In this document: piece by piece, positions 2,665 through 28,757 of the stretch | Numbering within the stretch: the first letter of the stretch is position 1 | Layout of the letters: every line of letters begins with the position of its first letter | DNA from: Przondovirus KP32i192 | Direction: 5' to 3' (one strand) | Sequence record: OZ035748.1 | Length of the DNA: 40,168 bases | Notes under the pieces: generated by a model | Told to the model about the DNA's origin: nothing | The model's input: only the letters and a program-made list of their open reading frames with translations | Databases searched by the model: none | Position numbers and translations under genes: made by a program

Positions 2665-2687
2665 AATTAGGGCACACTATAGGGAGA
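2665..2687 (+). promoter_or_regulatory. Phage RNAP promoter (phiOR-like, right end)
   Basis: AATTAGGGCACACTATAGGGAGA, full match to the window consensus; +1 G at 2682. Confidence 0.75.
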
Positions 2688-2828
2688 GACCCTTGAAGAC
2701 TTACTATAAGACAACTTAAAGATTCATTCATATAGTTATTCACTTTAAGTCTCCTTAAAGGTAGAGGGTAGTGATGATAATATCACCCTCTCACTACAAG
2801 ACACTAAGAGCCAACATAAGGAGGACCT

Positions 2829-2978: not shown

Positions 2979-3039
2979 GGTCTTCCTGACGCGCTAGGGA
3001 TTCCGTAGTGATGCTTATCAGCATACACCACTCCATCCC

Positions 3040-3440
3040 TCTATAGTCAATACTTAAAGTTAACCTTAGGTGATTCACTGGGTCTACCTACGGGTCTATG
3101 CACTGACCTGAGGACTACCTGAGGTTACCTTTAAGAATTTTACATAAAGTTCTGAGTGTACATCTCACAGTTTACACTTTTGGTCATCCCCCCCGGTACC
3201 CCTCCAGTTCACCCAAAGTAACCATGGGTACCCCCCTCTTTACCTTCAGTTTAACCTTGGGTGGTACCTTGGGAGTCCTTAGGTGATACTATATGTTGTG
3301 GTGTGGGTGACCTGAGGATACTATATGTTGATGTCTCTGTGTCCCTATCTGTTGGCCCTCTTTAAGTATCCACTGAGTACCACCTGAGGTTAGACCTGAG
3401 GTAATACCGGAGACCATATACCTTAGGTTAACCATGCGGC
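3040..3440. repeat. Array of short CCT(T/G)(A/G)GG heptamer repeats flanking the terminal-repeat region
   Basis: At least 9 copies of ccttagg / cctgagg / ccttggg, plus a 20-bp imperfect direct repeat (ccttaggtgatactatatgttg at 3277-3298, cctgaggatactatatgttg at 3311-3330); analogous to the short repeats near T7 genome ends. Confidence 0.5.
3163..3350. repeat. Putative direct terminal repeat (single collapsed copy) with predicted physical left end near 3163
   Basis: TCTCACAG at 3163-3170 matches the recalled T7 left-end sequence; TCTCTGTGTCCCTATCTGTT at about 3334-3353 matches the conserved block near the inner edge of the T7 terminal repeat; boundaries inferred. Confidence 0.35.
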
Positions 3441-3492
3441 CATCTGGTGAGTCATCACTATAGGGCTATTGGTGGTCATTGTCAATCAATCC

Positions 3493-3515
3493 TATTAGGA
3501 CACACTATAGGGAGA
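3493..3515 (+). promoter_or_regulatory. Phage RNAP promoter (phiOL-like, left end)
   Basis: TATTAGGACACACTATAGGGAGA; +1 G at 3510. Confidence 0.65.
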
Positions 3516-3594
3516 CACTTAAAGTATTACTTAGGGACCATCACCATAAAGATCACCATCACTATAGGTCTAACTAAAAGTTTAACTTTAAGTG

Positions 3595-3623
3595 TTGACA
3601 TTCAGATTCCGTTATGAGACATT
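3595..3623 (+). promoter_or_regulatory. Candidate host sigma70 early promoter (A1-like)
   Basis: -35 TTGACA (3595-3600), 17-bp spacer, weak -10 GACATT (3618-3623); position and flanks resemble T7 A1. Confidence 0.35.
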
Positions 3624-3726
3624 AGCAACCGTTGAGAGACACAACGCTACCAACCACTAGCATACTTCGAGTTATCTGGTTAGACTGATGGTCTCAAGTA
3701 GTCATCAACCGGACATACGAAAGTGG

Positions 3727-3755
3727 TTGACTCAACGATGAATAAGTAGTAAGAT
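3727..3755 (+). promoter_or_regulatory. Host sigma70 early promoter (A2-like)
   Basis: -35 TTGACT (3727-3732), 17-bp spacer, -10 TAAGAT (3750-3755); same hexamers as recalled T7 A2. Confidence 0.55.
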
Positions 3756-3854
3756 GCACCACAGATTCACGAAGTACCGCTAGGCAACTAGCATTGCTCT
3801 TTAACAATATGGATTAGTCAAGCTGATATGTACACCATGATAATAGTGTTTAAC

Positions 3855-3925
3855 TAGTGGTTACATTCAGGTCTCTGGCAAGGTACGTCCTGTCACCCTG
3901 AGAGTAGCCACAATGATAACCACTA
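3855..3925 (+). promoter_or_regulatory. Candidate long-range stem-loop in gene 0.3 leader (R0.3-like)
   Basis: TAGTGGTTA (3855-3863) is perfectly complementary to TAACCACTA (3917-3925), 9-bp stem enclosing 53 nt, immediately upstream of the gene 0.3 RBS. Confidence 0.3.
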
Positions 3926-3946
3926 ATCAACTGAAGGATATACATT

Positions 3947-4760: not shown

Positions 4761-5777
4761 ATGAACTACACCGACATGCAAGAACGCTTAGACGTCATCC
4801 GTAACCTGCCAATCTGTGAACTCGACAAGCGCCAGCCGCTGCTGGTAGCACTCATCGCGGACATTGTGAACTGCGAGACGTCCGATGGTGACGACACGGA
4901 TAGCGATTGGGGTCTGGAGCGACAGGACTACTGGCAAACCCTGAAGATTAAGGCCAAAGACGCTGGGTTTAACCTGCTGGGCAATGGACACTTCAGCGCA
5001 GCGTTTAAGCACGAGCTGCTACCGGGTAGGGTCATTAAGGTTGGCTTTAAGAAAGAGGATTCAGGGGCCGCATACGTGGCTTTCTGCCGGATGCACCAAG
5101 GCCGGGCAGGCATCCCTAACGTCTATCACGTAGCGCGTCACGCTGGGTGCTATACGGTGGTACTTGATGAGTTGGAACCATGCAAGCGCAGCAGTAACCA
5201 CTTGCACGACCACTACGCAGACCTCGCGTATTATTTTGTCGAGTGTGACTATGAGCCTGAGGAGCACCACGAGAAGGACTTACCGTTCATTGAGACGTGC
5301 CAGATGATTCGGGACTTCTTCTGTGGGATTGCATCCTTCGATATGCACAGCGGTAACATCATGTTCACCAAAGACGGCAAGCCAGTGATTACCGACCCGG
5401 TGTCATTCTCGGCGGACCGGGACCGTGAGCCTTTCTCACTGGAACCTGAGGAGCTACTTGCTGAGATTGAGCAGATAGCGCACGACAAGATGATTGAACG
5501 CTGCAAGCGCAACAAGGCTAAGCGTGACCCGAACGGAGCGCTGCGCATCGCACGGCGTAAGGCCAATAAGGAGCGTCGAGCACGCCGTAAGGCGCACGCT
5601 AGGTGGCGTAAGGAGCGTGAACGTGAACGTGAGCAGTATCACGTAGACGCCCTAAAGTTAGACCTAGCGAGTGTCGAGGAGCGCATTCTGGCGTGGCAAA
5701 TGGGTCCCGGCCTAGCGATACAAATGGGCAAGCCGTTGCCAATCGACAACTACCTTCAGGGTAGACTTATGGGTTAG
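4761..5777 (+). CDS. Serine/threonine protein kinase and host transcription shutoff protein (T7 gp0.7-like)
   Basis: 338-aa ORF; long identical blocks with recalled T7 gp0.7 (LPICELDKRQ, GNGHFSAA, RVIKVGFKKEDSGAAY, GIASFDMHSGNIMF). Confidence 0.85.
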   Translation: MNYTDMQERLDVIRNLPICELDKRQPLLVALIADIVNCETSDGDDTDSDWGLERQDYWQTLKIKAKDAGFNLLGNGHFSAAFKHELLPGRVIKVGFKKEDSGAAYVAFCRMHQGRAGIPNVYHVARHAGCYTVVLDELEPCKRSSNHLHDHYADLAYYFVECDYEPEEHHEKDLPFIETCQMIRDFFCGIASFDMHSGNIMFTKDGKPVITDPVSFSADRDREPFSLEPEELLAEIEQIAHDKMIERCKRNKAKRDPNGALRIARRKANKERRARRKAHARWRKEREREREQYHVDALKLDLASVEERILAWQMGPGLAIQMGKPLPIDNYLQGRLMG

Positions 5778-5846: not shown

Positions 5847-8567
5847 ATGAACGCATTAAACATTGCACGTAATGACTTCTCAGAGATTGAACTGGCCGCT
5901 ATTCCGTACAACATCCTCAGCGAGCACTACGGGGACAAGCTGGCACGTGAGCAGTTAGCACTGGAGCATGAGGCGTACGAGCTGGGTGAGCAGCGTTTCC
6001 TGAAGATGTTAGAACGTCAGGTGAAAGCTGGAGAGTTCGCTGACAACGTGGCCGCTAAGCCGCTGGTCCTAACGTTGCACCCGCAGCTGACCAAGCGCAT
6101 TGACGATTGGAAGGAGGAACAAGCAAACGCTCGTGGTAAGAAGCCTCGCGCATACTACCCGATTAAGCACGGCGTGTCCTCAGAGCTGGCCCTCAGTATG
6201 GGCGCTGAGGTACTCAATGAGAAGCGCGGAGTGTCCAGTGAGGCAATCGCACTGCTGACCATTAAGGTCGTCTTAGGGACGCTCACAGACGCCTCCAAGG
6301 CAACCATCCAGCAGGTATCCTCTCAGTTAGGCAAGGCTCTTGAGGATGAGGCCCGCTTTGGTCGTATCCGTGAGCAGGAAGCCGCCTACTTCAAGAAGAA
6401 CGTAGCGGACCAGCTGGACAAGCGTGTAGGCCACGTGTACAAGAAGGCTTTCATGCAGGTCGTCGAGGCCGATATGATTTCCAAAGGGATGCTGGGTGGG
6501 GACAACTGGTCCAGCTGGAAAACTGACGAGCAGATGCATGTGGGGACCAAGCTGCTTGAGCTACTCATCGAGGGCACTGGTCTGGTGGAAATGACCAAGA
6601 ACAAGATGGCCGATGGCTCCGACGATGTGACCAGTATGCAGATGGTCCAGCTGGCTCCGGCCTTTGTGGAACTCCTGAGCAAACGAGCGGGAGCACTCGC
6701 AGGTATCAGCCCGATGCACCAACCATGCGTAGTCCCTCCGAAACCTTGGGTGGAGACCGTAGGCGGTGGCTACTGGTCAGTCGGTCGCCGCCCGCTGGCG
6801 CTGGTTCGTACCCACTCCAAGAAGGCACTGCGCCGCTACGCAGACGTGCACATGCCCGAGGTATACAAAGCGGTAAACCTCGCGCAAAACACGCCGTGGA
6901 AGGTGAACAAGAAGGTGCTGGCGGTAGTCAACGAGATTGTCAACTGGAAGCACTGCCCGGTTGCTGACGTCCCGGCGATTGAACGCGAAGAGTTACCACC
7001 ACGCCCGGACGATATCGACACCAACGAGGTGTCACGCAAGGCATGGCGCAAGGAGGCCGCAGCGGTCTACCGTAAGGACAAGGCCCGCCAGTCTCGCCGT
7101 TTGTCAATGGAGTTCATGGTCGCACAGGCCAACAAGTTCGCTAACCACAAGGCCATCTGGTTCCCGTACAACATGGACTGGCGCGGACGTGTGTACGCTG
7201 TGAGCATGTTCAACCCGCAGGGTAACGACATGACCAAGGGTATGCTGACGCTGGCCAAGGGTAAGCCAATCGGTCTCGACGGGTTCTACTGGCTGAAGAT
7301 TCACGGTGCAAACTGTGCAGGCGTCGACAAGGTTCCATTCCCTGAGCGCATCAAGTTCATCGAAGAGAACGAGGGTAACATTCTGGCGAGCGCAGCAGAC
7401 CCGCTGAATAACATTTGGTGGACACAGCAAGATTCACCGTTCTGTTTCTTGGCGTTCTGCTTTGAGTACGCAGGCGTTAAACATCATGGCCTGAATTACA
7501 ACTGCTCGCTGCCGCTGGCATTCGATGGGTCATGCTCTGGGATTCAGCACTTCAGCGCGATGCTCCGCGATTCCATCGGTGGTCGTGCGGTTAACCTGCT
7601 GCCTTCTGATACTGTGCAGGATATCTACAAGATTGTGGCCGACAAGGTTAACGAGGTGCTTCACCAGCACGCTGTCAACGGGTCTCAGACGGTGGTCGAG
7701 CAGATTGCTGATAAAGAGACTGGCGAGTTCCGCGAGAAAGTAACACTGGGTGAGTCCGTGCTGGCTGCTCAGTGGTTGCAATATGGCGTGACCCGTAAGG
7801 TGACTAAGCGTTCGGTCATGACGTTGGCGTACGGTTCCAAAGAGTTCGGCTTCCGCCAGCAAGTTCTGGAAGACACCATTCAGCCTGCTATTGACAATGG
7901 CGAGGGCTTGATGTTTACGCACCCTAACCAAGCGGCTGGCTACATGGCTAAGCTGATTTGGGACGCTGTGACCGTGACCGTAGTGGCCGCTGTCGAGGCA
8001 ATGAACTGGCTGAAGTCTGCCGCTAAGCTGCTGGCTGCTGAAGTCAAGGACAAGAAGACCAAAGAGGTGCTGCGTAAGCGCTGCGCAATCCACTGGGTAA
8101 CACCCGATGGCTTCCCGGTGTGGCAGGAGTACCGCAAGCAGAACCAAGCGCGCCTGAAGCTGGTCTTCCTCGGGCAGGCCAACGTCAAGATGACGTATAA
8201 CACTGGGAAGGACTCAGAGATTGATGCCCACAAGCAGGAATCCGGCATAGCTCCTAACTTTGTTCACTCACAGGACGGTAGTCACCTACGCATGACCGTA
8301 GTACACGCCAACGAGGTCTACGGGATTGACTCCTTCGCACTCATTCACGACTCCTTCGGGACCATTCCGGCTGACGCTGGGAATCTCTTTAAGGCAGTCC
8401 GTGAGACGATGGTCAAGACCTACGAGGACAACGATGTGATCGCTGACTTCTACGACCAGTTCGCTGACCAGCTGCACGAGTCTCAACTGGACAAGATGCC
8501 AGCTGTTCCGGCCAAAGGTGACCTGAATCTGCGAGACATCTTGAAGTCAGACTTCGCGTTTGCGTAA
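5847..8567 (+). CDS. Single-subunit DNA-dependent RNA polymerase (T7 gp1-like)
   Basis: 906-aa ORF; collinear with recalled T7 RNAP along the full length, including the active-site region (LPLAFDGSCSGIQHFSAMLRD) and C-terminal FAFA. Confidence 0.95.
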   Translation: MNALNIARNDFSEIELAAIPYNILSEHYGDKLAREQLALEHEAYELGEQRFLKMLERQVKAGEFADNVAAKPLVLTLHPQLTKRIDDWKEEQANARGKKPRAYYPIKHGVSSELALSMGAEVLNEKRGVSSEAIALLTIKVVLGTLTDASKATIQQVSSQLGKALEDEARFGRIREQEAAYFKKNVADQLDKRVGHVYKKAFMQVVEADMISKGMLGGDNWSSWKTDEQMHVGTKLLELLIEGTGLVEMTKNKMADGSDDVTSMQMVQLAPAFVELLSKRAGALAGISPMHQPCVVPPKPWVETVGGGYWSVGRRPLALVRTHSKKALRRYADVHMPEVYKAVNLAQNTPWKVNKKVLAVVNEIVNWKHCPVADVPAIEREELPPRPDDIDTNEVSRKAWRKEAAAVYRKDKARQSRRLSMEFMVAQANKFANHKAIWFPYNMDWRGRVYAVSMFNPQGNDMTKGMLTLAKGKPIGLDGFYWLKIHGANCAGVDKVPFPERIKFIEENEGNILASAADPLNNIWWTQQDSPFCFLAFCFEYAGVKHHGLNYNCSLPLAFDGSCSGIQHFSAMLRDSIGGRAVNLLPSDTVQDIYKIVADKVNEVLHQHAVNGSQTVVEQIADKETGEFREKVTLGESVLAAQWLQYGVTRKVTKRSVMTLAYGSKEFGFRQQVLEDTIQPAIDNGEGLMFTHPNQAAGYMAKLIWDAVTVTVVAAVEAMNWLKSAAKLLAAEVKDKKTKEVLRKRCAIHWVTPDGFPVWQEYRKQNQARLKLVFLGQANVKMTYNTGKDSEIDAHKQESGIAPNFVHSQDGSHLRMTVVHANEVYGIDSFALIHDSFGTIPADAGNLFKAVRETMVKTYEDNDVIADFYDQFADQLHESQLDKMPAVPAKGDLNLRDILKSDFAFA

Positions 8568-8577
8568 GGTCTCGGGC

Positions 8578-8600
8578 AATTAGGGCACACTATAGGGAAC
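8578..8600 (+). promoter_or_regulatory. Phage RNAP promoter (phi1.1A-like)
   Basis: AATTAGGGCACACTATAGGGAAC; transcript starts with a 10-bp hairpin GGGAACCTTCG/CGAGGGTTCC. Confidence 0.7.
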
Positions 8601-8660
8601 CTTCGAATGACCGAGGGTTCCATTACTTAAAGTCTTAACTTAAAGAATACTTAAAGAGGC
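8595..8660 (+). other. Candidate primary replication origin region (promoter plus AT-rich tacttaaag repeats)
   Basis: 5' hairpin followed by three copies of (t/a)acttaaag at 8624, 8637, 8648; in T7 the primary origin is the promoter/AT-rich region just downstream of gene 1. Confidence 0.3.
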
Positions 8661-8665
8661 ACACC

Positions 8666-9226
8666 ATGACTTACTCAATCGTTGTAACCATCTTGTTAAT
8701 CGTATTAATCATCCTGTTAGTAAGGGCCGTCACACGACTCGGTGCCTGCGAGTACGCCCTTGAGAAGCAAGCCAAGAGCAACGAGGAGTACACAGACGGC
8801 TTGCACGATAAGGTCTGCCGCCTGTCTGACGATAAGGTATCACTCAATAAGCAGGTGCGGTGGTTAGAGAGCGAGCTTGAACACGAGAAGCAGAAGGTAC
8901 GCGATGTGAACGAACTACGGGAACGCCAGCGGGACCGCATGAAGTTCCTCCGCAAGTCCCTCAAGGAAGCACAAGATGAGCTGATGATGGTCTCCGACCT
9001 GATTCACGTTAAGTTCACCGCTGTGTTGCCGGACGGTACCCACTCCAAGACGCTCTTTAAGTTAGGACTTGGGCCGTGTGGCCTGCACGTTAAGTCCCTC
9101 CGCTGGACCGAGCTGGATGACCGCTATCTGATAGACCAGCTGTGCACCAACGGTGAGCGCAAGCAGTTCGTTTATTACAAGAGCGAAGTAGTGGGACGCA
9201 TCGAGTTCCGCCACGGTAAGATTTAA
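8666..9226 (+). CDS. Hypothetical protein, N-terminal TM helix plus coiled coil (no T7 counterpart; gene 1.05 position)
   Basis: 186-aa ORF with aagagg RBS; hydrophobic N-terminus IVVTILLIVLIILLV followed by charged heptad-rich region; no similarity to T7 proteins I can recall. Confidence 0.6.
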   Translation: MTYSIVVTILLIVLIILLVRAVTRLGACEYALEKQAKSNEEYTDGLHDKVCRLSDDKVSLNKQVRWLESELEHEKQKVRDVNELRERQRDRMKFLRKSLKEAQDELMMVSDLIHVKFTAVLPDGTHSKTLFKLGLGPCGLHVKSLRWTELDDRYLIDQLCTNGERKQFVYYKSEVVGRIEFRHGKI

Positions 9227-9247
9227 TTAGGACCCACTATCAGGAAC
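9225..9247 (+). promoter_or_regulatory. Degenerate phage promoter-like element (phi1.1B position)
   Basis: AATTAGGACCCACTATCAGGAAC: upstream -17 to -2 matches consensus but -1/+1 is C/A instead of A/G. Confidence 0.35.
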
Positions 9248-9248
9248 A

Positions 9249-9285
9249 TACTCAAGGTCATCACGTTTGGTGGCCTTCATGAATG
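9249..9285 (+). promoter_or_regulatory. RNase III-type processing hairpin (R1.1-like)
   Basis: tactcAAGGTCATCACgtttGGTGGCCTTcatgaatg; shares ctcaaggtca / tggcctt motifs with sites at 288, 9773, 16538. Confidence 0.55.
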
Positions 9286-9315
9286 TCCCTTAATATCACA
9301 ATCAGGAGCAACACC

Positions 9316-9753: not shown

Positions 9754-9774
9754 TTAGGACACACTATAGGCAGA
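9752..9774 (+). promoter_or_regulatory. Phage RNAP promoter (phi1.3-like)
   Basis: AATTAGGACACACTATAGGCAGA; +1 G at 9769. Confidence 0.65.
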
Positions 9775-9809
9775 CTCAAGGTCATCGGATTCCGGTGGCC
9801 TTTATGATT
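9773..9809 (+). promoter_or_regulatory. RNase III-type processing hairpin (R1.3-like)
   Basis: gactcAAGGTCATCGGattCCGGTGGCCTTtatgatt: 11-bp stem with two G-U pairs. Confidence 0.55.
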
Positions 9810-13859: not shown

Positions 13860-13983
13860 AATTACGTTTCCCTGTTGTCACACATTCTGTACAAATTATG
13901 GTCAGGCTAAGGTGCACTTGGCGTAGCGCTGCGCTTCATTCGGGTTCGATTCCCGGACTGACCACACCAACGGAGATTACTTT

Positions 13984-20647: not shown

Positions 20648-20697
20648 AAACTCATGGGCACAATTAGGACCCACTATAGGGAAGTGCCCATTATGAT
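20648..20697 (+). promoter_or_regulatory. RNase III-type hairpin enclosing a promoter (R6.5-like)
   Basis: ATGGGCAC (20654-20661) pairs with GTGCCCAT (20684-20691); the promoter sits in the loop; flanks actcatgg / ccattatgatt resemble the other sites. Confidence 0.4.
20662..20684 (+). promoter_or_regulatory. Phage RNAP promoter (phi6.5-like)
   Basis: AATTAGGACCCACTATAGGGAAG. Confidence 0.65.
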
Positions 20698-20731
20698 TAT
20701 TACTTAAAGATTACTTAAAGAGGAGACTCAA

Positions 20732-20977
20732 ATGTTAAAACCTATAGAGCACATCCTTAACAATCCTAATGACCTTCCTGATGTACCGCGAGCTGTTAAG
20801 GAGTACCTACAGTCTCGCTTCAATGCTGACTACCTATATCAGAGAGAGGTCCGTAGGCTACAGGAGCGCGGCCACAGTGAGGAGTTCATCTCCGGTGTAC
20901 TGTATGGTCACTACATGGCTTCTCGTGTCCTTGACGAGATGGAGGGCCGTCAGCGTGCACTCAAAGAAGGAGATTGA
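20732..20977 (+). CDS. Hypothetical protein (gp6.5-like by position)
   Basis: 81-aa ORF with aagaggag RBS. Confidence 0.5.
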   Translation: MLKPIEHILNNPNDLPDVPRAVKEYLQSRFNADYLYQREVRRLQERGHSEEFISGVLYGHYMASRVLDEMEGRQRALKEGD

Positions 20978-28709: not shown

Positions 28710-28732
28710 AATTAGGGCACACTATAGGGAGA
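28710..28732 (+). promoter_or_regulatory. Phage RNAP promoter (phi13-like)
   Basis: AATTAGGGCACACTATAGGGAGA. Confidence 0.75.
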
Positions 28733-28757
28733 CCACACTAAGAGGGGGACTTAAAGC

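What the first reader, a model, noticed from the sequence alone, without database searches (positions are those of the whole stretch)
8595..8660. Candidate primary replication origin: promoter-proximal hairpin plus three tacttaaag repeats
Directly after the promoter following gene 1 there is a 10-bp 5' hairpin and three spaced copies of (t/a)acttaaag in an AT-rich stretch. T7 initiates replication from the promoter/AT-rich region at this location. The same motif pair recurs after the promoter at 20662 (tacttaaag at 20701 and 20712), which could be a secondary origin; part of the motif also doubles as RBS context (aaagagg).
Basis: inference. Interest (0 to 1): 0.35.

Follow-up and report, generated by a model that had tools for sequence, protein, structure and literature searches.

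The report
K11-type counterpart of T7 replication origin
The promoter, hairpin and three ACTTAAAG repeats just after the RNA polymerase gene of this Klebsiella T7-like phage are real, highly conserved, and match the known transcription-primed replication origin of phages T7 and T3, so this is an expected feature rather than a new kind of element.

Summary
The window is a Przondovirus (K11-like Klebsiella phage) genome. After gene 1 lie a K11-type promoter (+1 at 8595), a 10-bp 5' hairpin (8596-8621) and three exact ACTTAAAG octamers (8625, 8638, 8649). The third octamer overlaps the ribosome-binding site of gene 1.05.

ACTTAAAG occurs 16 times in the window (0.74 expected). Eight copies lie within 80 nt downstream of phage promoters (0.04 expected).

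The module has the position and architecture of the T7 phi1.1B AT-rich primary origin. It also matches the site that the T3 RefSeq record annotates as 'primary origin of DNA replication', after phi1.05.

The three least stable 40-bp duplex segments of the genome lie just downstream of the phiOR-, phi6.5- and phi1.05-type promoters. T7, T3 and K11 show the same pattern, and in T7 these promoters include the known origins.

All 36 module-bearing relatives, out of 38 sampled, keep exactly three octamers, even where the hairpin and spacers differ.

The hairpin is a generic 5' stem-loop and is not origin-specific. The octamer overlaps the T7 'epsilon' translation enhancer, so a dual role is likely.

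Origin firing itself is untested. Verdict: a new member of a known kind, of modest interest.

The parts
5847..8567 (+). Gene 1, phage RNA polymerase (906 aa). Context only; its stop codon precedes the module.
   Evidence: ORF list. 99.6% identical to Klebsiella phage Kp_Pokalde_002, where it is annotated as RNA polymerase.
8578..8600 (+). K11-type phage promoter (-17 to +6), the homologue of K11/T3 phi1.05. Transcription starts at G 8595.
   Evidence: Sequence aattagggcacactatagggaac. Identical 23-mer annotated as phi1.05 in K11 NC_011043. One of 12 promoter-core matches in the window against 0.52 expected.
8596..8621 (+). 5'-terminal RNA hairpin with a 10-bp stem and a 6-nt loop.
   Evidence: MFE -17.1 kcal/mol, z -4.4. 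In variant-B relatives (L014, L034, L111) it is replaced by a different stem, GGACCC/GGGTCC, at the same place. Comparable 5' hairpins follow phi2.5, phi3.8 and phi17.
8625..8632 (+). ACTTAAAG octamer, copy 1.
   Evidence: ACTT and AAG are invariant columns in an alignment of seven phages covering several Studiervirinae genera.
8638..8645 (+). ACTTAAAG octamer, copy 2. With its flank it reads TTAACTTAAAG, one base different from the T7 enhancer-containing TTAACTTTAAG.
   Evidence: T7 enhancer element described in PMC8748333.
8649..8656 (+). ACTTAAAG octamer, copy 3, overlapping the Shine-Dalgarno sequence AAAGAGG (8653-8659) of gene 1.05.
8618..8658 (.). Low-melting AT-rich segment, the candidate unwinding and RNA-to-DNA switch zone.
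   Evidence: Third least stable 40-bp window of 40,128 (nearest-neighbour dG -43.7 kcal/mol, z 4.1). The equivalent segments rank 2nd in T7 (phi1.1B), 1st in T3 (annotated origin) and 2nd in K11.
8666..9226 (+). Gene 1.05 (186 aa, membrane-anchored 'fusion protein'). It is translated from the same leader.
   Evidence: ORF list. K11 and Pokalde annotations.
9225..9247 (+). phi1.1-type promoter (CACTATCAGG), followed by an RNase III-like site. It is the counterpart of the T7 phi1.1A/R1.1 half of the origin region.
   Evidence: K11 annotates phi1.1 at the same place. T3 annotates R1.1 after its phi1.1.
20662..20731 (+). phi6.5-type module: promoter (+1 at 20679), octamers at 20702-20709 and 20713-20720, and a Shine-Dalgarno sequence before the gene 6.5 ATG at 20732. 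Candidate secondary origin.
   Evidence: 20690-20730 is the second least stable 40-bp window. K11 annotates phi6.5 here. T7 phi6.5 is cited as a secondary origin (PMC8373140).
3493..3524 (+). phiOL-type promoter (+1 at 3510), with ACTTAAAG at +8 (3517-3524) and no start codon nearby.
   Evidence: K11 phiOL is identical. T7 and T3 phiOL are also followed by ACTTAAAG.
2665..2749 (+). phiOR-type promoter (+1 at 2682), with ACTTAAAG at 2714-2721 and ACTTTAAG at 2742-2749.
   Evidence: 2700-2740 is the least stable 40-bp window of the genome. The octamer at +33 is invariant in 8 loci although its flanks vary.
28710..28756 (+). phi13-type promoter (+1 at 28727), with a single ACTTAAAG (28749-28756) between the Shine-Dalgarno sequence and the ATG.

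Best explanation
This is the Przondovirus version of the T7/T3 transcription-primed replication origin, built into the leader of gene 1.05.

Shown here: a phage RNA polymerase promoter (+1 at 8595) fires rightward into one of the three most easily melted 40-bp stretches of the genome. That stretch contains three ACTTAAAG octamers 11-13 bp apart. The same promoter-plus-low-melting layout occurs after the phiOL, phi6.5 and phiOR homologues. It also occurs in T7, T3 and K11 at the corresponding promoters.

Inferred by homology with T7: the phage polymerase makes short transcripts. In the weakly paired A/U-rich hybrid just past the 5' hairpin, the RNA 3' end is handed to the phage DNA polymerase, which starts rightward synthesis. 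The helicase-primase then loads on the displaced strand and sets up the leftward fork.

The site lies about 13.5% from the physical left end, directly after gene 1. It is therefore the first such module available once the polymerase is made, which is why it would act as the 'primary' origin. phi6.5, phiOL and phiOR would act as back-ups.

The same RNA is also the 5' UTR of gene 1.05. The hairpin probably protects the 5' end of the transcript. The octamers probably also act as A/U-rich translation enhancers; copy 3 overlaps the Shine-Dalgarno sequence.
For: Identity and position: the window is 99.6% identical to a Przondovirus. The promoter equals K11 phi1.05. It lies 5.4 kb from the K11-defined left end, about 13.5% of the genome. 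The corresponding values are 14.8% for T7 phi1.1B and for T3 phi1.05.

Homology: the T3 record annotates the primary origin (rep_origin 5682..5758) right after phi1.05, with a hairpin followed by ACTTTAAG. T7 phi1.1B is followed by a CCTTAAGG hairpin and ACTTTAAG/CTTAAG repeats. The first octamer is invariant in an alignment of seven phages covering several genera.

Architecture: the least stable 40-bp windows are #1 phiOR +18, #2 phi6.5 +11, #3 phi1.05 +23 and #5 phiOL +52. As a control, in T7 the ranks are #1 phiOL, #2 phi1.1B, #3 phi6.5 and #5 phiOR. In T3 they are #1 phi1.05 and #2 phiOL. In K11 the top four are OR, 1.05, OL and 6.5.

Literature: T7 replication starts at phi1.1A/B, with phiOR and phi6.5 as secondary origins. 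A T7 promoter is essential to every T7 origin, and origin plasmids need loss of RNase H, which implies an RNA-DNA hybrid (PMC8373140). phiOR-based replicons work with the T7 replisome (bioRxiv 10.1101/2024.07.25.605042).

Conservation: 36 of 38 Przondovirus-like loci have exactly three octamers. None of the 24 octamer columns vary, against 12 of 51 hairpin and spacer columns. 318 phage records cover at least 80% of the module.

The octamer also follows phiOL and phiOR, where no start codon is near, so it is not only a ribosome-binding-site element.
Against: No experiment or marker-frequency data exist for this phage group, so origin activity rests on homology.

GC skew is monotonic and uninformative.

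There is one promoter here, not the tandem pair of T7.

No canonical primase site (G/T)(G/T)GTC lies on the + strand within 8450-8850.

Two natural relatives (L021, L037) lack the module entirely, so it is dispensable.

The octamer also occurs in plain ribosome-binding-site contexts (genes 9 and 13, and phi2.5 in some relatives) and overlaps the T7 translation enhancer. An expression role could therefore explain the conservation.

Cell-free work reports that promoters without an AT-rich tract, such as phi10, also support T7-polymerase-dependent replication (PMC12796468). The AT-rich repeats may therefore not be what defines an origin.
Confidence: 0.6

Rival explanations
1. Expression module only. 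The hairpin stabilises the 5' end of the phi1.05 transcript. The three octamers are tandem A/U-rich ('epsilon'-like) translation enhancers or ribosome standby sites feeding the Shine-Dalgarno sequence of gene 1.05, and likewise of gene 6.5. There is no role in replication initiation.
For: Copy 3 overlaps AAAGAGG, with 6 nt separating that sequence from the ATG. The 20713 copy overlaps AAAGAGGAG. T7 genes 9, 10 and 17, and gene 9 in this window, carry ACTTTAAG directly fused to GGAG. The T7 gene 10 enhancer is an A/U-rich 9-nt element just upstream of the Shine-Dalgarno sequence that raises translation many-fold (PMC8748333). By my recollection its sequence is TTAACTTTA, and copy 2 here reads TTAACTTAAAG. 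The repeat region is predicted to be unstructured. In L028, L075 and L094 the module is fused to a different gene's ATG, so it behaves as a portable leader. 5' hairpins are generic on these transcripts.
Against: ACTTAAAG also follows phiOL (+8) and phiOR (+33), with no start codon nearby, and this holds in K11, T3 and T7. The octamer-bearing promoters include the homologues of the T7 promoters named as origins. The highly expressed gene 10 here has no octamer. Enhancer activity in E. coli does not depend on exact sequence pairing (PMC8748333), which does not explain zero variation in 24 octamer columns. This rival does not exclude an origin role; in T7 the origin AT-rich region also contains the gene 1.1 ribosome-binding site.
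Confidence: 0.25
2. Sequence-specific iterons. ACTT(A/T)AAG is a discrete recognition site for a phage or host factor that marks the 'replication promoters'. It might, for example, impose a polymerase pause or release signal, or recruit the replisome. A+T richness alone would not be the point.
For: The octamers are exact while the hairpin, the spacers and even promoter bases vary. Variant B and Pantoea phage Bubbas keep three exact copies with entirely different spacers. The 5' A is always on the sense strand, so the element is directional. Spacing of 10-14 or 22 bp is roughly one or two helical turns. The octamer is the most over-represented non-coding word after the promoter.
Against: No origin-binding protein is known in T7, according to the literature read here and my own knowledge. 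At phiOL the octamer does vary in 5 of 13 loci (ACTTTAAG, ACTTAGAG, ACTCTAAG and others). The relatives are closely related, so invariance is partly shared ancestry. No candidate binding factor was identified.
Confidence: 0.13
3. Chance or low-complexity AT-rich spacer with no specific function.
For: Intergenic DNA in these phages is generally more A+T-rich than coding DNA.
Against: 16 copies observed against 0.74 expected. 9 copies against 0.12 expected within non-coding DNA alone. Conserved in hundreds of records and in several related genera.
Confidence: 0.02

Closest known systems
T7 primary origin of replication (promoters phi1.1A/phi1.1B plus the downstream AT-rich region, about 15% from the left end)
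   Same: It lies directly after gene 1. A phage promoter fires into the lowest-stability duplex of the region. There is a short 5' hairpin followed by ACTT(A/T)AAG or CTTAAG repeats, and the region overlaps the ribosome-binding site of the next gene.
   Different: T7 has two tandem promoters with an RNase III site between them. Here there is a single promoter, and the RNase III-type module (phi1.1) lies 650 nt further on, after an extra gene (1.05). The repeat is ACTTAAAG in three regular copies rather than the looser T7 set. Origin activity is experimentally shown for T7 and not for this phage.
T3 primary origin as annotated in NC_003298 (rep_origin 5682..5758, after promoter phi1.05)
   Same: The gene order is the same: gene 1, then phi1.05, then hairpin, then octamers, then gene 1.05, then phi1.1 with R1.1. 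In both phages the segment is among the least stable duplexes of the genome.
   Different: T3 uses ACTTTAAG/CTTTAAG, and part of the annotated origin lies inside gene 1.05. The promoter specificity differs (T3 versus K11 type).
T7 secondary origins and 'replication promoters' (phiOL, phiOR, phi6.5)
   Same: The homologous promoters here are each followed by ACTTAAAG and by a top-ranked low-stability segment. T7 phiOL carries the identical ACTTAAAG.
   Different: T7 phiOR is AT-rich but lacks the octamer. Here phi13 also carries one copy.
T7 gene 10 leader translational enhancer ('epsilon', UUAACUUUA)
   Same: An A/U-rich element overlapping ACTTTAAG immediately upstream of a Shine-Dalgarno sequence. 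Copies 2 and 3 here have the same context.
   Different: Here the element is present in three tandem copies. It also occurs after promoters with no gene nearby, which the enhancer model does not cover.

Membership tests
T7-type transcription-primed phage replication origin | A promoter for the phage's own single-subunit RNA polymerase, directed into the origin | tested here: met
   Exact K11-type promoter at 8578-8600. Annotated as phi1.05 in K11. [quoted passage not shown]
T7-type transcription-primed phage replication origin | An AT-rich, easily melted segment immediately downstream of the promoter | tested here: met
   8618-8658 ranks 3rd of 40,128 windows for low duplex stability. The positive controls T7 phi1.1B and the annotated T3 origin rank 2nd and 1st in their own genomes.
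T7-type transcription-primed phage replication origin | Location just downstream of gene 1, about 15% from the genetic left end (the primary origin) | tested here: met
   The +1 position is 28 nt after the gene 1 stop codon and about 13.5% from the K11-defined left end.
T7-type transcription-primed phage replication origin | Sequence relatedness to the T7 and T3 origin region | tested here: met
   The alignment shows promoter, hairpin and ACTT-AAG columns shared with T7 phi1.1B and T3 phi1.05. The flanking genes are syntenic.
T7-type transcription-primed phage replication origin | Two tandem promoters, as in T7 phi1.1A/phi1.1B | tested here: not met
   There is a single promoter. The next one (9225-9247) lies after gene 1.05. 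T3 has the same single-promoter layout, so this feature is specific to T7 and does not define the family.
T7-type transcription-primed phage replication origin | A primase recognition site near the AT-rich region to start the opposite strand | tested here: inconclusive
   No (G/T)(G/T)GTC on the + strand in 8450-8850. Three sites lie on the - strand at 8454-8494. The site inside the T7 AT-rich region is reported as not used (PMC12839067).
T7-type transcription-primed phage replication origin | Replication demonstrably initiates at the site (mapping, or plasmid amplification on infection) | not testable with these tools
   No experimental data were found for Przondovirus in the paper library. 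GC skew is uninformative.
A/U-rich translational enhancer of the T7 gene 10 leader type | An A/U-rich element a few nucleotides upstream of a Shine-Dalgarno sequence in an unstructured leader | tested here: met
   Copies 2 and 3 lie 8-28 nt upstream of the ATG. The leader downstream of the hairpin is predicted to be mostly unpaired. The T7 enhancer element is described in PMC8748333.
A/U-rich translational enhancer of the T7 gene 10 leader type | A measured increase in translation of the downstream gene | not testable with these tools
   This needs reporter assays.
RNase III processing site of T7-like phages | A long (about 20 bp or more) irregular stem of the actcaaggtcat...ggtggccttt type | tested here: not met
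   The hairpin at 8596-8621 has only 10 bp. The RNase III-type element occurs instead after phi1.1 and phi1.3.

The most novel reading that the evidence does not exclude
ACTT(A/T)AAG is not just A+T-rich filler. It would be a discrete, directional cis-element shared by several related Studiervirinae genera (T7, T3, K11, Yersinia fPS-21 and Pantoea Bubbas types). It would mark the subset of phage promoters that act as replication origins (phiOL, phi1.05/1.1B, phi6.5, phiOR). It would be read sequence-specifically, for example as a polymerase release or hand-off signal or as a binding site for an unidentified factor. That would give T7-like origins an iteron-like component that decades of T7 work treated as a generic AT-rich region.
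Probability: 0.2. Interest if true: 0.6.

Novelty: new member of a known kind. Interest (0 to 1): 0.3.

Why it matters
T7-type origins are being used to build orthogonal replicons and cell-free replication systems (PMC8373140; PMC12796468). Przondoviruses are common Klebsiella therapy candidates.

Knowing that the K11 group carries a compact, highly conserved origin-like module gives a ready part for a K11-polymerase-based orthogonal replicon. The module is about 90 bp: promoter, hairpin and three octamers.

It also gives a precise target for testing what, beyond a promoter, makes a T7-like origin. The exact conservation of the octamer, compared with mere A+T richness, makes that long-standing vagueness about the 'AT-rich region' directly testable with a few point mutants.

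For annotation, it marks a feature that current Przondovirus records leave unlabelled.

Tried and rejected
GC and cumulative skew: monotonic and dominated by rightward transcription, so it gives no origin signal.

Rfam scan of the whole window: no family matched.

Sigma-70 promoter scan of 8300-9000: none found, so the repeats are not a host promoter, despite TTGACTTAAAG being the -35 region of T7 promoter A1.

RNase III site: rejected, because the stem has only 10 bp and the real RNase III-type elements sit after phi1.1 and phi1.3.

Intrinsic terminator: the scan found none at the hairpin, and there is no U-run after it.

Primase sites: uninformative.

16S rRNA pairing of the octamer: not pursued, because the enhancer's effect is reported to be independent of that pairing (PMC8748333).

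Palindrome-flip idea (CTTAAAG equals CTTTAAG on the other strand): rejected, because the conserved 5' A stays on the sense strand in both variants.

Literature search for the octamer as a word: returned only primer and vector sequences.

Searches for a Przondovirus origin description: nothing found.

Old PNAS papers on the T7 origin could not be read. Details such as the 61-bp AT-rich region and 10-60 nt primers therefore rest on my recollection.

Full report
**What the window is**

Region 8000-9300 is 99.6% identical to Klebsiella phage Kp_Pokalde_002 and more than 90% identical to hundreds of Klebsiella podoviruses of the genus Przondovirus, the K11 group of T7-like phages. The 906-aa ORF at 5847-8567 is the phage RNA polymerase, gene 1. 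The window is a circular permutation of the genome with the terminal repeat collapsed. The K11 left end maps to about window 3163.

**Check of the observation**

- K11-type promoter aattagggcacactatagggaac at 8578-8600, starting at G 8595.
- Hairpin at 8596-8621: 10 bp, 6-nt loop, -17.1 kcal/mol, z = -4.4.
- ACTTAAAG at 8625, 8638 and 8649. The third copy runs into AAAGAGG, and the ATG of a 186-aa gene is at 8666.
- At the second site, the promoter starts at 20679, octamers lie at 20702 and 20713, and the ATG is at 20732.

The motif is far from chance:
- 16 copies in the window against 0.74 expected.
- 9 copies on the + strand in about 6.1 kb of non-coding DNA against 0.12 expected from that DNA's own dinucleotide composition.
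- 8 copies within the first 80 nt downstream of the 12 phage promoters against 0.04 expected.
- It is the most frequent non-coding 8-mer apart from pieces of the promoter itself.

**Where the motif sits**

Octamers follow five promoters: 2682, 3510, 8595, 20679 and 28727. They do not follow the other seven.

By position and by the curated K11 record, these five are phiOR, phiOL, phi1.05, phi6.5 and phi13. K11 has the same module after gene 1 and names the promoter phi1.05. A second promoter, phi1.1 (window 9225-9247), follows gene 1.05 and is followed by an RNase III-type element.

**Comparison with T7 and T3**

In T7, phi1.1B is followed by a small CCTTAAGG hairpin, then AACTTTAAG, CCCTTAAG and GACTTTAAG before the gene 1.1 ATG.

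The T3 RefSeq record annotates 'primary origin of DNA replication' (5682..5758) immediately after promoter phi1.05. The sequence there is gggagactaCTTAAGgtctccc-ACTTTAAG..., that is, a hairpin followed by the octamer.

An alignment of the module from this window, a variant Przondovirus, T7, T3, Yersinia phage fPS-21, Pantoea phage Bubbas and one further contig was made. Outside the promoter core and the final G of the start codon, the only invariant columns are ACTT and AAG of the first octamer.

The K11-type phi1.05 module therefore corresponds to the T7 phi1.1B half of the origin. The phi1.1 RNase III module corresponds to the T7 phi1.1A/R1.1 half. An extra gene (1.05) lies between them, as in T3.

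**An independent architectural test**

I computed nearest-neighbour duplex stability in 40-bp windows over the whole genome. The least stable non-overlapping windows are:
- #1: 18 nt after the phiOR start.
- #2: 11 nt after the phi6.5 start.
- #3: 23 nt after the phi1.05 start (8618-8658).
- #5: 52 nt after the phiOL start.

The same calculation on controls gave:
- T7: #1 phiOL, #2 phi1.1B, #3 phi6.5, #5 phiOR. The phi1.1B window lies in the AT-rich region of the primary origin.
- T3: #1 the annotated origin after phi1.05, #2 phiOL.
- K11: the top four are OR, 1.05, OL and 6.5.

The literature I could read states several relevant points:
- T7 replication starts at phi1.1A/B and can start at secondary origins such as phiOR and phi6.5.
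- A T7 promoter is essential to every T7 origin.
- T7-origin plasmids need loss of RNase H, which implies an RNA-DNA hybrid primer (PMC8373140).
- phiOR replicons work with a reconstituted T7 replisome.

The window thus reproduces the one structural signature that is common to the known T7 origins, and it does so at the homologous promoters.

**Conservation**

I anchored on the gene 1 stop codon in IMG/VR contigs. Of 38 Przondovirus-like loci, 36 carry the module and all 36 have exactly three ACTTAAAG copies.

In 32 gap-free loci, none of the 24 octamer columns varies. By comparison, 12 of 51 hairpin and spacer columns and 8 of 23 promoter columns vary (Fisher p = 0.007; the sequences are related, so this is only indicative).

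Three loci of the KP32/KpV767 type replace the hairpin with a different stem (GGACCC/GGGTCC) and change both spacers, yet keep three exact octamers.

Pantoea phage Bubbas has three exact ACTTAAAG copies with 14-nt spacers. Yersinia fPS-21 has a hairpin, two ACTTTAAG copies and ACTCTAAGAGG.

Kayfunavirus, Ghunavirus and Aarhusvirus phages have no such module after gene 1.

In the phage database, 318 records cover at least 80% of the 97-nt module.

Two natural relatives (L021, L037) lack the module and gene 1.05. Three others (L028, L075, L094) lack gene 1.05 but keep the module, fused to gene 1.1. The module is therefore dispensable and portable. By my recollection, T7 likewise tolerates deletion of its primary origin.

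**What is not origin-specific**

The hairpin is not origin-specific. 5'-terminal stem-loops also follow phi2.5, phi3.8 and phi17, so it is best read as the usual 5' stabiliser of these transcripts. Its structure rather than its sequence is conserved.

The octamer also occurs fused to Shine-Dalgarno sequences. This is seen at gene 9 here, at T7 genes 9, 10 and 17, and at phi2.5 in some relatives. It overlaps the T7 gene 10 'epsilon' enhancer, which I recall as UUAACUUUA; PMC8748333 describes this element as an A/U-rich 9-nt enhancer upstream of the Shine-Dalgarno sequence.

A translation-enhancer role for copies 2 and 3 is therefore likely. It cannot be the whole story, because the octamer also follows phiOL and phiOR, where no start codon is near, in K11, T3 and T7 alike.

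**Mechanism proposed**

Shown: a promoter firing into a minimal-stability segment that carries conserved octamers, at the site homologous to the T7 and T3 origin.

Inferred:
- Short phage-polymerase transcripts are handed to the phage DNA polymerase in the weak A/U-rich hybrid just past the hairpin.
- The helicase-primase loads on the displaced strand.
- The site acts first because it is the first such module available after gene 1 is expressed.
- phi6.5, phiOL and phiOR act as secondary origins.

Not explained: why the exact octamer, with its 5' A always on the sense strand, is kept rather than A+T richness alone (note in the notebook).

**Negative or uninformative checks**

- GC skew.
- Rfam.
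- Sigma-70 promoter and terminator scan.
- Primase sites.
- Literature searches for the octamer or for a Przondovirus origin.

**Verdict**

This is a K11-group member of a known kind of origin. Neither the K11 record nor the closest relative's record labels it as an origin, and it has a probable second role as a translation leader. Interest is modest. The one point that goes beyond textbook knowledge is the discrete, cross-genus ACTT(A/T)AAG element.

Noticed in passing
window 13900-13969 (+): A tRNA-like cloverleaf lies just after the phi3.8-type promoter. It has a GGUCAG/CUGACC acceptor-like stem, a UUCGAUU T-loop arm and a 3' ACACCA. MFE is -27.9 kcal/mol, z -2.8. ARAGORN calls no tRNA. Rfam gives only a weak tmRNA T-arm hit, E 0.45. 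It is present in K11 and about half of the relatives, and replaced by a short leader in the others.
   Followed up: partly
window 20654-20661 and 20684-20691: The inverted repeat ATGGGCAC/GTGCCCAT brackets the phi6.5 promoter, so read-through RNA would fold the promoter into a stem-loop (-14.8 kcal/mol, z -2.3). T3 annotates RNase III site R6.5 around its phi6.5 promoter in the same way.
   Followed up: partly
window 9225-9290 and 9769-9805: The phi1.1-type promoter has a non-consensus CACTATCAGG start region. It is followed by an RNase III-type element (actcaaggtcat...ggtggcctt). The same element follows phi1.3.
   Followed up: partly
window 2979-3946; left end at about 3163: The window is a circularly permuted genome with the direct terminal repeat collapsed to one copy. 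The first 20 nt of K11 map to window 3163. Terminal repeats are often deleted during assembly of przondovirus genomes (abstract of PMC10438801, seen).
   Followed up: partly
loci L021, L037, L028, L075, L094 compared with window 8568-9290: Gene 1.05 shows a presence/absence polymorphism among relatives. When it is absent, either the phi1.05 octamer module or the phi1.1 RNase III module is kept in front of gene 1.1. Both leaders end in ...caccATG, which might have mediated the exchange, but this was not tested.
   Followed up: partly
window 3052-3059: An extra ACTTAAAG lies between gene 19.5 and the genome end. It is conserved in K11 (40890), and T3 has one inside its terminal repeat (179 and 38156). 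A possible link to end processing or packaging was not examined.
   Followed up: no
L003 (T7) 461-472; L125 (T3) 443-453; window 3585-3600: The -35 region of host promoter A1 in T7 and T3 reads TTGACTT(A/T)AAG, so it contains the octamer. In the window, ACTTTAAGT lies immediately upstream of a TTGACA.
   Followed up: no
PMC6171733 (T7 experimental evolution): When T7 was forced to use a polymerase with altered specificity, only phiOL, phi1.5, phi2.5, phi6.5 and phiOR changed, and phiOL and phi6.5 were duplicated. Three of these five are the replication-type promoters discussed here.
   Followed up: no
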